DNA of 64,000 nucleotides from Candidatus Yonathbacteria bacterium RIFCSPLOWO2_01_FULL_47_33b (GCA_001823575.1 MHUW01000007.1:24223-88222), one strand, 5' to 3'; numbered from the stretch's first letter, positions 17,684 through 23,009 are shown. Numbers and translations are program-made. Notes: generated from the letters alone by a model not told the origin.

Positions 17684-19678
17684 TTACTCTTCTTGATAAA
17701 GAGGGTTGCATTTGAGGCAGACACCAAGTTCTTGGAGACGGTTCAAGTACCCAACGACCGTGGTGACGTATTCCGAGTGACTCCACGTGAGCGGCGTTGC
17801 CGAGAGTTGCTCGCCTGTGTAGGGGTGGATTTGTTCTGAAAGAACGCCCGAAAGCGAAGCATGTTTAACGGTCCATGCGAGCCATTTGTGTACAGGAGCA
17901 AAATCAGCTTCGTTCTTTGCACGGGCAATATAATATTTTGCGAGCCAAAGGGTGGTAATGATCCAAGGGTTCCCCGGGATGCCGCCTGCTGAACGGAAAT
18001 AATAGTCCCCTTCATATCGCGCAACGCCTGAGACCTCTGTTTTGCAAACGAGGCGATCTTCAACTTGTTTGATTGCGCGGGCGAGGCGTGGGTCATCGAT
18101 GTCGAGCACACCGTACGCAAAGACACCGTACACACTCGACATATCAAGTGTCTTGTCATAGGTAATCGTTCCATCATCTGCCACGTTGAGCATTTTTACA
18201 AAAATCCCCTGCGTGTCATCATAGAGGTACGTCAGCATTGCCTGTCGAATCTCAAAAGCAGCAGTATTGTATGTTTGCTCGCTTTTTTCTTTGCCGAGAA
18301 GTTTTGCGAATTTTGCCGCTGCTATAAGTGCACCATATACGGTCGATACCGTAAACGTGTGAATGCCGAATTTCTCTTCCCAGAGATCGTACGAGGCTTT
18401 GGGGAGGCGTGTTTTTGGATCACGATACTCCACCATGAAATCAGCAGCTTTTTTAACGAGGCTGTTGTATATCTGCTCGACAAACTCGAGGTCTTTGGAT
18501 TGCGCATAGTGGCGCCACAGCGCGACGACAACCAGTGCCGTTTCATCTTCTTGAATAGGGAGTTCGATTTTCCCTCCACGCATCCACGGATGCCACGAGC
18601 TTCCGAGTGAACCGTCAGAGCGGTATTTATGCATAAGGTACCCCTCATCACTAAGGGCGTCATTGCAGAAGAGGAAAAACCGTTCAGAGACATTGAAATC
18701 CCCTGCCATATCAAAGGCCATCGCCGAGAGTGCGCCGTCGCGGGGCCACATGTAGCTGTACGTGTCGCGTCCATTTTGGAGCATGTCTGAGTCGGCGGAA
18801 GCAAGTATTGCTCCGCGGTTGTCGGCATGGGTGCGTATCATCAAGAGCGATCTTTTAAAAAGAGTCGCCTCGTCCTCGGTGAGTCCATAAAAGTTAAAAT
18901 TGTACTTGTTGACCCATGCACGCCAAAAGTCATGCGTGGTACGCATAAGGTGTCCAGGCTTGCGCTCAAGGGTGTACGTGTTGAGTGCCAAGGCCTCTTT
19001 GATGGATTCTGCTGCTGCAATCCAATAGTGAATCGTTTTTTCTTCCCCGGGACCAAGATCAAGATAAAAACCAATCACGGAGTCCGAAGGGCCATGCTCG
19101 ATAAGATTTTTGGACAAGGCACCGTCCTCGGCGTCTTTAAAGCTACCTTCCTTTCCCTCTATTTTGAAAATACCTGTCGTATAATCGTCAAAACTCCCTT
19201 TATCTGAAATACCGTTAATGAGGAAGACACGCCTGCCGTTATAGTGAATTACAACATGGTTAATGGGGTCAAAATACGAAGTATCTCCACGGTGTGACTC
19301 GTAGATCTCGAACTCGTGATTAAAGAAAAGTTTTACCGTGCGGGCACGATCGGTCTCATTTTTTACCGTCACCGCACGCAAGAAAATATTTTTTTCATTG
19401 TATACCGTATCCGAGAGATGAAGGGTTACTCCGAGAGTATCGTTTTTTGCGGTGGTTTCACCAACGAGCGACTCTCTTGCTGAGCCGATTTTGATATCCC
19501 AATTGGGGTTGTCGAACCAGTTGAGCTGATAGTCAACGTAGACACCAACACGATGCGTAAAGTGTCCACCAATATGATTTTCAAGCCCTACGTACGGAAA
19601 GTAAAAGTCACGAACCTGCGCTCGCTTGTCTGTGCAGACGAGAATATTTCCGTTACCGAGTGAAAGGGACTTGGGCAT
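17684..19678 (-). CDS. glycoside hydrolase family 15 (glucoamylase/glucodextranase/trehalase-like)
   Basis: WPRDGA and DLWEE (general acid) motifs of the (alpha/alpha)6 barrel. The track begins at GTG 19789. The likely start is MPKSLSLGNGN (ATG 19678), directly downstream of TTGTAT-17-TATAAT. Confidence 0.85.
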   Translation of the reverse strand: MPKSLSLGNGNILVCTDKRAQVRDFYFPYVGLENHIGGHFTHRVGVYVDYQLNWFDNPNWDIKIGSARESLVGETTAKNDTLGVTLHLSDTVYNEKNIFLRAVTVKNETDRARTVKLFFNHEFEIYESHRGDTSYFDPINHVVIHYNGRRVFLINGISDKGSFDDYTTGIFKIEGKEGSFKDAEDGALSKNLIEHGPSDSVIGFYLDLGPGEEKTIHYWIAAAESIKEALALNTYTLERKPGHLMRTTHDFWRAWVNKYNFNFYGLTEDEATLFKRSLLMIRTHADNRGAILASADSDMLQNGRDTYSYMWPRDGALSAMAFDMAGDFNVSERFFLFCNDALSDEGYLMHKYRSDGSLGSSWHPWMRGGKIELPIQEDETALVVVALWRHYAQSKDLEFVEQIYNSLVKKAADFMVEYRDPKTRLPKASYDLWEEKFGIHTFTVSTVYGALIAAAKFAKLLGKEKSEQTYNTAAFEIRQAMLTYLYDDTQGIFVKMLNVADDGTITYDKTLDMSSVYGVFAYGVLDIDDPRLARAIKQVEDRLVCKTEVSGVARYEGDYYFRSAGGIPGNPWIITTLWLAKYYIARAKNEADFAPVHKWLAWTVKHASLSGVLSEQIHPYTGEQLSATPLTWSHSEYVTTVVGYLNRLQELGVCLKCNPLYQEE

Positions 19679-19782
19679 GTTTACATTATAGAAAAAACCG
19701 CGCTTGAATACAATACTAAGATGCCGTATTTGTGTATAATTTCCCCCACAACACCACCGTGGCGTATCTGTATCCTTGTTCA

Positions 19783-19822
19783 TCATCACAGAGTTGTATC
19801 TATAGATACAACTCTGTGATGA
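19783..19822. promoter_or_regulatory. 40-bp perfect palindrome (putative operator), copy 1
   Basis: TCATCACAGAGTTGTATCTATAGATACAACTCTGTGATGA equals its own reverse complement. Confidence 0.7.
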
Positions 19823-21720: not shown

Positions 21721-21776
21721 ATGGGTAGTTAATAGCTGGTAGTCATTAGCCAATAGGAAATACAGAACACATTATA

Positions 21777-23009
21777 TCAGATTACGCGCACTTCAGGTGG
21801 CACTCCGCAATCACAAATGAGTTTTGCGTAATAATCAATACACTTTTTGCTGGATGCGTCCCAGGTAACCTTTTTTACTTCCTCACGACTGTTGCTCCAA
21901 AGTGTTTGCCAGAGAGAGCGATGTGACACCACCCCGAGAATCTTGTTCGCCATATCATCGGTATCCCAAAAGTCCGTTTTAAGTGCGTGCGTCAGAACTT
22001 CGGCGACGCCTGATTGCTTTGAGATAAGCACGGGCGCACCGGCAATGATTGACTCGAGTGGGGTAATACCAAAAGGCTCAGAAACCGACGGCATCACAAA
22101 GAGGTCTGCAGCACGATACACAGCACTGAGGTCGTCGCCACGAAGAAAGCCGACGAACATTACGTTGCTCGATATGCCGAGGTGCGCCGCCTCAAGCATC
22201 ATTTGTCGCTCCATATCTCCGCTCCCCGCGACAAGAAACAGTACGTTAGGATTGTGCTCAAGAACGCGTTTTGCCGCGCGAATAAAATACTCAGGCCCTT
22301 TTTGGATAGTGATGCGACCTGCAAAGAGTACAATTTTTTGCCCATTCTTTTTTAGTTCAGAAAGTCTATCTGGAATATCCGCATAGTCACATTCATCAAT
22401 GCCGTTATGTACTACTTCGATTTTTCCCGGAGAGATACCGTAGTGTTTGATAATTTTTTCTTTCGTAAAATTAGAAACGGCTATGATGCCGTCGGCATAT
22501 TCCATTGCCATTTTTTCGATGTCATAGACATCTTGGTTGACCCCCTGCCCTCCCGTGCGGTCAAACTCTGTCGCGTGCACGTGAAGAACAAGGGGTTTGC
22601 CAGAAACTTTTTTAGCTTCGACTCCCGCAAGAAACGAAAGCCAGTCGTGCGCATGAATAACATCAAAGTGTTCTTTTTTTGCAATCTCGCGTGCACGGAG
22701 AGCATAGCGGCGAACCTCTTGAAGAAGCGTATTGCCATAGATATCAGAGATCATTTTGTCACGCTCACGCACATAACCATCAGAAGTAACGTATGGTTTA
22801 AGGTTTGACTCGATCTCGTGGAACTTCACCTTGCGCGTATCAGCAAAAAGAATGTTCATAAACGACGCAGAGACACCAACCTTTTTAGGAAGCACGAAAA
22901 GGACATCGATTTGTCGGTTGGCGAGCGCGCGCGTCAACCCAAAACACGCCGTGCCAAGGCCGCCGCTGTTGTGAGGGGGAAATTCCCAGCCGAACATAAG
23001 TACGCGCAT
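21777..23009 (-). CDS. GT4/GT5 glycosyltransferase (glycogen/alpha-glucan synthase-like)
   Basis: N-terminal GGLGT and C-terminal E-x7-E (EPFGITPLE). Confidence 0.85.
   Translation of the reverse strand: MRVLMFGWEFPPHNSGGLGTACFGLTRALANRQIDVLFVLPKKVGVSASFMNILFADTRKVKFHEIESNLKPYVTSDGYVRERDKMISDIYGNTLLQEVRRYALRAREIAKKEHFDVIHAHDWLSFLAGVEAKKVSGKPLVLHVHATEFDRTGGQGVNQDVYDIEKMAMEYADGIIAVSNFTKEKIIKHYGISPGKIEVVHNGIDECDYADIPDRLSELKKNGQKIVLFAGRITIQKGPEYFIRAAKRVLEHNPNVLFLVAGSGDMERQMMLEAAHLGISSNVMFVGFLRGDDLSAVYRAADLFVMPSVSEPFGITPLESIIAGAPVLISKQSGVAEVLTHALKTDFWDTDDMANKILGVVSHRSLWQTLWSNSREEVKKVTWDASSKKCIDYYAKLICDCGVPPEVRVI

What the first reader, a model, noticed from the sequence alone, without database searches (positions are those of the whole stretch)
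17684..23009. Alpha-glucan locus with a PaaX-like regulator flanked by two identical perfect palindromes
GT4/5 synthase, GH57, a 182-aa PaaX-like regulator and GH15 lie head-to-tail on the minus strand. The same 36-bp perfect palindromic core (ATCACAGAGTTGTATCTATAGATACAACTCTGTGAT) occurs twice. One copy lies 10 bp upstream of the regulator's ATG. The other lies about 100 bp upstream of the GH15 start, beside a TTGTAT-17-TATAAT near-leaderless promoter. This looks like an operator pair for autoregulation and for control of GH15, suggesting a dedicated alpha-glucan/trehalose-responsive regulon. Each copy has its own palindromic extension, which argues that selection maintains dyad symmetry.
Basis: partly seen in the sequence, partly recalled or inferred. 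Interest (0 to 1): 0.65.

Follow-up and report, generated by a model that had tools for sequence, protein, structure and literature searches.

The report
Palindrome-flanked mini-PaaX regulator gene cassette
A small DNA-binding protein gene in an uncultured groundwater bacterium is bracketed by two identical perfect palindromes, and this layout recurs across hundreds of related bacteria, so it is most likely a self-regulating repressor with its own binding sites, not a dedicated switch for the neighbouring sugar genes.

Summary
A 36-bp perfect palindrome occurs exactly twice in 64 kb, and the two copies bracket a 182-aa gene (19840-20388, minus strand) that sits between GH57 and GH15. The organism is Candidatus Yonathbacteria (CPR/Patescibacteria).

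The protein is a "mini-PaaX": a winged helix plus a Cas2-like domain, without PaaX's ligand domain.

The layout is not special to this locus.
- In 80 related loci, about half of the homologues carry 32-64-bp, mostly perfect palindromes within 200 bp of either gene end. That is roughly 80 times the density elsewhere in the same loci.
- The palindrome centres are conserved (CTATAG or CGATCG).
- Half-sites specific to each subfamily lie 11-17 bp from the dyad.
- The arms differ from locus to locus.

Upstream copies abut a -10 box, which points to an autoregulatory operator.

Downstream copies show no promoter signal, and 15 of 26 face a convergent gene. Three closely related genomes, including the nearest (92% GH57 identity), lack the whole cassette yet keep the same GH15 promoter. 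The alpha-glucan regulon reading is therefore not supported.

Two things remain unexplained. The arms stay symmetric through compensated changes (51 of 59 differences). The role of the downstream copy is also unknown.

I found no description of this architecture in the papers I could search.

The parts
21777..23009 (-). GT4/GT5-type glycosyltransferase (glycogen-synthase-like). This is a neighbour and not part of the cassette.
   Evidence: Pfam Glycos_transf_1, Glyco_transf_4 and Glyco_transf_5. NCBIfam glgA_Coryne matches below its cutoff.
20470..21720 (-). GH57 family protein (416 aa), the upstream neighbour. Its last ~15 codons lie inside the region that differs from cassette-free relatives.
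   Evidence: Pfam PF03065, E=3.6e-77. Homology with L092 breaks at about window 20515.
20398..20439 (.). Upstream palindrome: 42 bp perfect, with the 36-bp core at 20401-20436 and centre TCTATAGA. It is the proposed operator over the regulator's own promoter. On the minus strand TTGTAT lies at 20427-20422 and TG-extended GATAAT at 20403-20398, 9 nt before the ATG.
   Evidence: Family-wide -10 adjacency. An alternative promoter-like site, TATACA-16-GATAAT at 20465-20438, lies just upstream of the palindrome, which was also flagged as terminator-like after GH57.
19840..20388 (-). 182-aa mini-PaaX protein. It has an N-terminal winged helix (about residues 8-90) and a C-terminal Cas2-like ferredoxin domain (about residues 98-180, with VMFDIPE and IQKSVF motifs). 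It has no PaaX_C domain.
19783..19822 (.). Downstream palindrome: 40 bp perfect, with the 36-bp core at 19785-19820 identical to the upstream core. It starts 17 nt after the regulator's stop codon (the 36-bp core starts 19 nt after). It is a second copy of the operator and its role is unresolved.
   Evidence: No T-tract follows it (the next bases are GATGAACAAG), and only 5 of 28 family downstream copies have one. Downstream copies show no family-wide -10 signal.
19676..19713 (-). GH15's own leaderless-type promoter and start: TTGTAT (19713-19708), 17 nt, TATAAT (19690-19685), 6 nt, ATG (19678-19676). It is independent of the cassette.
   Evidence: The TATAAT-N6-ATG element is conserved in L092 and L093, with TATACT in L094; none of these carries the cassette.
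17684..19678 (-). GH15 family glycoside hydrolase, 664 aa from the conserved ATG. The 701-aa ORF that starts inside the palindrome is an over-extension.
   Evidence: Pfam PF00723. Orthologues are 664 aa. The start is in frame.
48560..48607 (.). Solo 48-bp perfect palindrome of the same type (centre GCTATAGC) with different arms. On the minus strand it is followed by 8 nt, CATAAT (48551-48546), 5 nt, and the GTG start of a dihydrouridine-synthase-like gene (48540). It is the proposed target site of a paralogous regulator encoded elsewhere.
   Evidence: 13 of 17 arm positions match the palindrome flanking paralogue P0024 in L095.

Best explanation
**What it is.** The 182-aa gene encodes a short PaaX-type DNA-binding protein: a winged helix joined to a Cas2-like dimerisation core, without the CoA-ligand domain.

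**Proposed binding (inferred).** A homodimer binds the long palindrome. The two winged helices read half-sites 11-17 bp on either side of the dyad (TCACAnA in this subfamily). The conserved core sits over the conserved centre (C-N-A-T-N-G).

**Upstream copy (inferred from position).** It covers the -35/spacer region of the gene's own promoter, so the protein represses its own transcription.

**Downstream copy (least certain step).** It is a second binding site for the same protein. It most likely helps repression by looping, or insulates the gene from transcription coming from its neighbours. It is not a GH15-specific operator.

**Family picture.** The gene plus both palindromes form an ~825-bp unit present in some Yonathbacteria-like genomes and absent from closely related ones. 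The family is large and mostly CPR, with several paralogues per genome. Each paralogue has its own arm sequence, and some solo palindromes sit at other promoters.

**Symmetry (inferred from general knowledge).** The perfect symmetry of non-conserved positions is probably kept by arm-to-arm copying, the quasipalindrome template switching described in E. coli. Base-by-base protein contact is a less likely cause.
For: **Protein identity.**
- PaaX_M matches in 26 of 26 family members.
- The fold is a wHTH plus a Cas2 fold. The best full-length solved match is E. coli PaaX.

**Operator geometry.** The E. coli PaaX site is TGATTC-N27-GAATCA, a 39-bp span, and PaaX represses its own promoter (PMC9493321). 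Here the site is TCACA-N24-TGTGA within 36-42 bp.

**Family-wide association.**
- Palindrome density is 1.84 per kb within 200 bp of the gene against 0.023 per kb elsewhere in the 80 loci.
- With a looser score, 30 of 77 upstream and 27 of 78 downstream windows carry one, against 0.8% of control windows.

**Promoter position.** A -10 box lies at the gene-proximal edge of upstream copies in 42% of cases against 9.5% of controls, p=1e-5. Most other edge and strand combinations are at background. The exception is the antisense reading of that same AT-rich flank, at 31%.

**Conserved positions.** The centre and the outer half-site sit at fixed distances from the dyad. Related proteins share related outer arms.

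**Paralogue specificity.** Paralogues from one genome have different arms (L013/L027, L017/L020, L063/L078).

**Solo sites at promoters.** The window site at 48560 and L022 8161 both lie just upstream of a -10 box. The window solo resembles the palindrome flanking paralogue P0024.

**DNA-level symmetry.** Of 20 mismatches in 1124 pairs, only 6 are G.T on the sense strand.

**Not phage-borne.** Only 1 weak hit was found in the viral contigs.
Against: - No binding experiment exists.
- A dimer need not contact all 18-32 bp of an arm. Yet 37 of 54 palindromes are perfect, some reach 64-70 bp, and 51 of 59 differences between the two copies of a locus are compensated. A plain operator model does not predict this.
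- A second operator placed after the stop codon is unusual, and no test here fixes its function.
- About half of the 80 homologous loci show no long palindrome.
- The invariant Cas2-type Asp (D110) and the QKSVF motif leave room for a catalytic role.
- In this window a second promoter-like site lies upstream of the palindrome, so the palindrome may be transcribed.
- The regulon could not be checked genome-wide.
Confidence: 0.6

Rival explanations
1. The protein is a dedicated alpha-glucan/trehalose-responsive regulator. One palindrome autoregulates it and the other controls GH15.
For: - The gene sits between GH57 and GH15 here and in two other species, L011 and L012.
- A 42%-identical homologue lies next to a GT4-GH57 pair in L047.
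- The downstream palindrome is on the GH15 side.
Against: - The cassette is absent from three closely related genomes, including the nearest, which keep the same GH15 promoter.
- The downstream copy ends 72 bp upstream of the GH15 -35.
- The two-sided layout occurs in unrelated contexts, and 15 of 26 downstream copies face convergent genes.
- No sugar- or CoA-binding domain is present.
- The L047 adjacency could be chance; I ran no test of this.
Confidence: 0.1
2. The unit is a selfish or nuclease-linked palindromic element, comparable to REPIN-RAYT. The Cas2-like domain would be an active nuclease that recognises the palindromes as hairpins or cruciforms. It would cut or copy at the conserved centre, which would maintain perfect symmetry and occasionally move or delete the cassette.
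For: - The gene is flanked on both sides by cognate palindromes, and solo copies exist elsewhere.
- Symmetry is kept by compensated changes at positions that are not conserved.
- Perfect arms reach up to 35 bp.
- The Cas2 catalytic-type Asp and the QKSVF motif are invariant or nearly so.
- Close relatives differ in presence or absence of the cassette.
- Each paralogue has its own palindrome type.
Against: - There are no near-identical gene copies in different contexts; the next relative is 82% identical and in the same context.
- No target-site duplication or clean boundary is visible.
- The cognate 36-mer has no dispersed copies in 64 kb.
- Empty sites carry no solo palindrome, so loss by recombination between the repeats is not visible.
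- The -10 adjacency and fixed half-sites fit a transcription factor.
- There is no HUH or recombinase motif.
Confidence: 0.12
3. The palindromes act as RNA hairpins. They would serve as terminators, mRNA-end stabilisers or RNase III sites that cut the small gene's message out of the operon transcript. The protein would be irrelevant to them.
For: - Each palindrome folds into an 18-22-bp hairpin, z-score -7 to -11.
- The upstream copy follows the GH57 stop and was flagged terminator-like.
- 56 of 75 upstream neighbours are co-directional.
Against: - G.U-type pairs are almost absent: 6 of 1124 pairs on the sense strand.
- Family upstream copies lie upstream of the -10 box, so the gene's own promoter would not transcribe them.
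- Only 5 of 28 downstream copies are followed by a T-tract, and the window copy is not.
- This model gives no reason for a specific link to one protein family, or for conserved half-sites at fixed distance.
- No Rfam family matches above its gathering threshold.
Confidence: 0.08
4. It is a degenerate or minimal CRISPR-like locus: a Cas2 homologue with two 36-bp repeats.
For: - There are weak Cas2 profile matches, and NCBI names the protein Cas2.
- The repeat is 36 bp long.
Against: - There are only two repeats, 616 bp apart, with the gene itself lying between them.
- The repeats are full perfect palindromes.
- The neighbours are sugar-metabolism genes and not cas genes.
- The same layout appears at hundreds of loci without arrays.
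- The protein carries a wHTH, and PaaX is its best full-length structural match.
Confidence: 0.01

Closest known systems
PaaX, the phenylacetyl-CoA-responsive repressor of E. coli and Pseudomonas (PDB 8a39; PaaX-like proteins 3l09 and 3kfw)
   Same: - Both have an N-terminal winged helix followed by a Cas2-like dimerisation domain.
- Both use a long-span inverted-repeat site. PaaX's is TGATTC-N27-GAATCA, and PaaX autorepresses by blocking RNA polymerase (PMC9493321).
   Different: - This protein is 182 aa against about 305-316 aa for PaaX.
- It has no PaaX_C ligand domain, no PF07848 match and no paa genes nearby.
- The whole site is a perfect palindrome with a conserved centre.
- A second copy lies after the gene.
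- The family is largely confined to CPR bacteria and has several paralogues per genome.
Cas2 (CRISPR adaptation protein) and VapD
   Same: The C-terminal domain has the ferredoxin-like fold. It also has the beta1 Asp motif (VMFDI against VVYDV) and the IQKSVF against IQRSAF motif.
   Different: It is fused to a wHTH. There is no cas1, no array and no toxin-antitoxin partner. Profile scores are only marginally above the Cas2 cutoffs.
Phage lambda CI with the OL and OR operators flanking the immunity region (from my own knowledge)
   Same: A repressor gene is bracketed by operators for its own product. In lambda the two operator sets cooperate by looping.
   Different: Lambda operators are tripartite 17-bp sites on a phage. 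Here there are single 36-64-bp perfect palindromes on a bacterial chromosome, and looping is untested.
REPIN-RAYT systems (from my own knowledge)
   Same: A single-copy gene is flanked on both sides by its cognate palindromic repeats. Each paralogue has its own repeat type, and hairpin symmetry is kept by compensated changes.
   Different: RAYTs are HUH tyrosine nucleases with tens to hundreds of dispersed REPINs. Here the fold is Cas2-like, and no dispersed population was seen in 64 kb.

Membership tests
PaaX family repressor | Central Cas2-like domain (Pfam PF20803, PaaX_M) | tested here: met
   E=3.8e-19, 69 bits against a cutoff of 24. 26 of 26 family members match.
PaaX family repressor | N-terminal PaaX-type winged helix (Pfam PF07848) | tested here: inconclusive
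PaaX family repressor | C-terminal helical ligand (aryl-CoA) domain, PaaX_C | tested here: not met
   The protein ends at residue 182, right after the Cas2-like domain. No PaaX_C match was found.
PaaX family repressor | Long-span inverted-repeat operator at its own promoter | tested here: met
   Half-sites lie 11-17 bp from the dyad. A -10 box abuts upstream palindromes. This evidence is positional only; binding was not tested.
PaaX family repressor | Linkage to phenylacetate catabolic (paa) genes | tested here: not met
   The neighbours are GT4, GH57, GH15 and G6PD. Contexts vary across the related loci.
Cas2 (CRISPR adaptation) | Cas2 fold with the beta1 Asp and QxSxF motifs | tested here: met
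Cas2 (CRISPR adaptation) | Adjacent cas1 and a CRISPR array of three or more regularly spaced repeats | tested here: not met
   There are only two copies, 616 bp apart, bracketing the gene. The flanking genes are glycan enzymes.
REPIN-RAYT | HUH/Y1 nuclease gene | tested here: not met
   No Y1 or HUH family matches in Pfam or NCBIfam. The fold is a wHTH plus Cas2.
REPIN-RAYT | Dispersed genomic population of the cognate palindrome | tested here: inconclusive
   No extra copy occurs in 64 kb. One extra cognate copy occurs in L033. The whole genome could not be scanned.
Intrinsic terminator | GC-rich hairpin followed by a T-tract | tested here: not met
   The downstream copy is followed by GATGAACAAG, and only 5 of 28 family downstream copies have a T-tract. 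The upstream copy was flagged terminator-like by the simple scan.
Transposable element (IS/MITE) | Target-site duplication, clean boundaries and near-identical copies elsewhere | tested here: not met
   Alignment with the empty site in L092 shows no duplication and ragged boundaries. No homologue more than 82% identical lies in another context.

The most novel reading that the evidence does not exclude
The palindrome-gene-palindrome unit is a previously unrecognised class of CPR genetic element. Its Cas2-like domain would be catalytically active on hairpin or cruciform DNA at the conserved C-N-A-T-N-G centre. That activity would keep the arms perfectly symmetric and drive gain and loss of the cassette. 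It would be a Cas2-fold analogue of REPIN-RAYT systems and a possible window on what Cas2-like proteins did before CRISPR.
Probability: 0.12. Interest if true: 0.85.

Novelty: new variant of a known kind. Interest (0 to 1): 0.6.

Why it matters
CPR/Patescibacteria make up a large share of bacterial diversity, are almost entirely uncultured, and their gene regulation is essentially unknown.

This family is large: 804 clusters at 50% identity with E<=1e-30. It has several paralogues per genome, and each carries its presumptive binding site next to the gene. That gives a ready-made protein-to-site dictionary. With it, regulons could be predicted in genomes that cannot be grown, and predictions tested with synthetic DNA and purified protein.

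The palindromes are also of interest on their own. They are long, mostly perfect and fast-evolving, yet they stay symmetric. That makes them a natural system for studying how inverted repeats evolve in concert in reduced genomes.

If the Cas2-type residues prove to be catalytic, the family would link PaaX-type regulators and Cas2 functionally as well as structurally.

Tried and rejected
1. **Genome-wide search for the palindrome.** Two scans of metagenome contigs found nothing: one with a degenerate pattern covering both window palindromes, one with the exact 30-mer core. They did not even find the known site, although JGI samples do hold this contig. The null result is therefore uninformative.
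2. **Phage origin.** Only one weak homologue (32% identity) exists in 2.9 million viral contigs, and PHROGs gives no match. Rejected.
3. **Defence system.** PADLOC returns only weak Cas2 profiles.
4. **Known RNA family.** Rfam gives only sub-threshold "miRNA" hits, which merely reflect hairpins.
5. **RNA hairpin model.** Rejected mainly on the near absence of G.U pairs and on position relative to the -10 box.
6. **CRISPR remnant.** Rejected.
7. **Transposon.** No target-site duplication and no identical copies.
8. **Conserved target gene for the ACTATCCCCA-type solo palindromes in L022 and L094.** No homologue of the L094 flanking genes was found in L022, whose sequence ends about 330 bp past its solo palindrome.
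9. **Literature.** Six full-text searches combining PaaX, Cas2-like, Patescibacteria/CPR, palindrome and PaaX-like found no description of this family or layout. Subscription journals are not covered.
10. **Orientation of the downstream neighbour.** Downstream palindromes are not significantly commoner next to convergent neighbours (Fisher p=0.15).
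Full report
**1. The observation**

The 36-mer ATCACAGAGTTGTATCTATAGATACAACTCTGTGAT occurs at 19785-19820 and 20401-20436 and nowhere else in the 64-kb window. This holds even with 3 mismatches allowed, and none is expected by chance. Its 18-nt half-site finds only these two places. Each copy extends as a perfect palindrome in its own way: 40 bp at 19783-19822 and 42 bp at 20398-20439.

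The two copies bracket a 182-aa ORF at 19840-20388 on the minus strand. That ORF lies between GH57 (20470-21720) and GH15, with a GT4/GT5-type glycosyltransferase upstream and G6PD downstream.

The true GH15 start is the ATG at 19678. The longer ORF that begins inside the palindrome is an over-extension, because orthologues are 664 aa.

The sequence comes from Candidatus Yonathbacteria RIFCSPLOWO2_01_FULL_47_33b, a CPR/Patescibacteria genome from the Rifle aquifer.

**2. The protein**

- Pfam gives PaaX_M, the Cas2-like central domain of PaaX, at E=3.8e-19, plus a marginal Cas2 match. There is no PaaX N-terminal or C-terminal family match.
- An AlphaFold2 model (pLDDT 81) shows a winged helix followed by a ferredoxin-like domain.
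- In Foldseek, E. coli PaaX (8a39) is the best full-length hit, followed by the PaaX-like Rv0674.
- The Cas2 signature is retained: VMFDIPE against VVYDVSD, and IQKSVF against IQRSAF. D110 is invariant in 26 diverse homologues.

I therefore call it a "mini-PaaX": the wHTH and the Cas2-like core, without the ligand-binding domain.

**3. The layout is a property of the family**

A profile search finds 804 clusters (50% identity) at E<=1e-30 and 2897 at E<=1e-10. At least 563 loci occur among GTDB species genomes. Nearly all are Patescibacteria, and one genome often holds several (where four paralogues come from one MAG).

I fetched 80 of these loci. The findings were:

- **Enrichment.** Zero-loop palindromes with arms of at least 14 bp occur at 1.84 per kb within 200 bp of the gene, against 0.023 per kb elsewhere. 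With a looser score, 30 of 77 upstream and 27 of 78 downstream windows carry one, against 0.8% of control windows.
- **Perfection.** 37 of 54 are perfect, with lengths of 32-64 bp.
- **Centres.** They are overwhelmingly CTATAG (24) or CGATCG (19), so the general form is C-N-A-T-N-G.
- **Arms.** They differ between loci. Paralogues from the same genome have different arms.
- **Coverage.** About half of the loci have no such palindrome. The feature is common in the family but not universal.

**4. What the palindromes are**

*Upstream copies are promoter-associated.* A hexamer matching TATAAT at 5 of 6 positions or better lies within 14 nt of the gene-proximal edge in 11 of 26 cases (42%), against 9.5% of controls (p=1.1e-5). 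Most other edge and strand combinations, for both upstream and downstream copies, are at background. The one exception is the antisense reading of that same AT-rich flank (31%), which probably reflects the near-palindromic nature of TATAAT-like sequence. The palindrome therefore covers the -35/spacer region.

In the window the arrangement is TTGTAT-18-TG-GATAAT-9-ATG. A second promoter-like site lies just upstream of the palindrome, so this particular case is less clean than the family average.

*Conserved positions fit a dimer.* A centre-anchored profile of the Yonathbacteria-like subfamily shows a conserved centre, an invariant A at position 11 and C16-A15-C14-A13. Positions 6-10 and 12 are variable. 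This gives TCACA-N24-TGTGA. That is close in span to the E. coli PaaX site TGATTC-N27-GAATCA, and PaaX is known to repress its own promoter (PMC9493321). Related proteins share related outer arms.

*Solo palindromes of the same type sit at other promoters.*
- The window has a 48-bp solo palindrome at 48560-48607. It is followed by CATAAT, 5 nt, and the GTG start of a dihydrouridine-synthase-like gene.
- L022 has one followed by TATAAT.
- The window solo matches 13 of 17 arm positions of the palindrome that flanks paralogue P0024 in another Rifle contig.

Together these points support a family of self-regulating DNA-binding proteins, each with its own site type and a few targets acting in trans.

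**5. What does not fit a plain operator**

*Symmetry is kept at non-conserved positions.* Between the upstream and downstream copies of 16 loci, 59 arm positions differ. In 51 of these, both arms changed so that each copy stays symmetric.

*The symmetry is at the DNA level.* Only 6 sense-strand G.T pairs occur among 1124 pairs. This argues against selection on an RNA hairpin.

*Some arms are too long for a dimer.* Perfect arms reach 32-35 bp, longer than a dimer footprint.

*My preferred explanation* is arm-to-arm copying by quasipalindrome template switching. This is a mutational process described in E. coli; I offer it from general knowledge and as an inference. A cruciform or hairpin role, or a nuclease-driven process, is not excluded.

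*The downstream copy is odd.* It shows no promoter signal. 15 of 26 face a convergent neighbour. Only 5 of 28 have a T-tract. I take it to be an auxiliary binding site, for looping as with lambda OL-OR or for insulating the gene from neighbouring transcription. This step is inferred and not shown.

**6. The alpha-glucan question**

The same GH57-X-GH15 arrangement is found in L011 (X 82% identical) and L012 (74%). The divergence of X is similar to that of the flanking genes, so the cassette was inherited vertically there.

However, three closely related genomes have GH57 followed directly by GH15, with a gap of only 44-68 bp: L092 (GH57 92% identical), L093 (89%) and L094 (86%). They have no palindrome in that gap and carry the same leaderless-type GH15 promoter. 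A neighbour-joining tree of the three flanking proteins places the window as sister to the cassette-free L092.

Relative to L092, about 825 bp (window 20515-19691) replaces 79 bp. There is no target-site duplication.

GH15 therefore does not need this protein or the palindrome in order to have a promoter, and the cassette is gained or lost on short evolutionary timescales. The reading as a dedicated alpha-glucan regulon is not supported. A local insulating effect between the synthesis genes (GT4, GH57) and the degradation genes (GH15, G6PD) remains possible.

**7. Rivals and verdict**

- The phage, defence-system, CRISPR-remnant, transposon and RNA-motif readings were tested and are weak.
- The most novel reading not excluded is a Cas2-fold analogue of REPIN-RAYT elements. 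I give it about 0.12.
- I found no description of this family or its palindrome architecture in six full-text searches. Subscription journals are not covered by those searches.

The GH15/alpha-glucan part is not supported. The real finding is a widespread CPR gene cassette of a mini-PaaX regulator with long, perfectly symmetric cognate palindromes.

Noticed in passing
window 48560-48607: A solo 48-bp perfect palindrome (ACAACTAACATGTATTCTTAGCTATAGC...) lies between an FtsQ-like gene and a dihydrouridine-synthase-like gene. On the minus strand it is followed by CATAAT, 5 nt and a GTG start. Its arms resemble the palindrome flanking paralogue P0024 in L095.
   Followed up: partly
window 17586-17678 and 62444-62529; L012 4700-4830: A second, unrelated inverted-repeat family. 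Its arms are GTATACCCCCACACCTAyTTTTT and AAAAArTAGGTGTGGGGGTATAC, separated by about 50 variable nt. In the window one copy lies between GH15 and G6PD, with its arm abutting a TATACT-N7-ATG start. In L012 a copy sits just upstream of GH15. A degenerate arm copy lies at about 19735-19757.
   Followed up: partly
window 19676-19690, 48538-48551, about 17580; many related loci: Leaderless-type starts, with a -10 box 5-7 nt before an ATG or GTG, recur at GH15, the dus-like gene, G6PD and many homologues of the regulator. Leaderless transcripts may be common in this lineage.
   Followed up: no
L011 1676-2041 and 3376-3873; L012 1602-1988 and 2156-2542: In relatives, extra small ORFs are inserted into intergenic gaps of the same GT4-GH57-GH15 cluster. 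One is a 165-aa protein whose C-terminus looks to me like an RNA polymerase alpha C-terminal domain (by eye; not tested with any tool). The gaps in this cluster seem to collect small genes.
   Followed up: no
L094 2144-2189 and L022 8161-8214: Solo palindromes in two different genomes share the outer arm ACTATCCCCA and the CTATAG centre. Their inner arms differ, and each stays perfectly symmetric. They lie next to different genes.
   Followed up: partly
L031 4572-4805 and 5516-5585; L036 about 610-750: L031 has 78-bp tandem repeats (3 copies) just downstream of a homologue, and a 70-bp perfect palindrome (centre TTATAA) flanked on each side by a -10-like TACTAT box and a nearby ATG. L036 has a short tandem repeat between the palindrome and the gene.
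   Followed up: no
L021, L023, L024 (Thermodesulfobacteriota/Syntrophaceae MAGs): Homologues outside CPR carry palindromes centred on GCGATCGC, the same octamer as the cyanobacterial HIP1 repeat. This may be coincidence.
   Followed up: no
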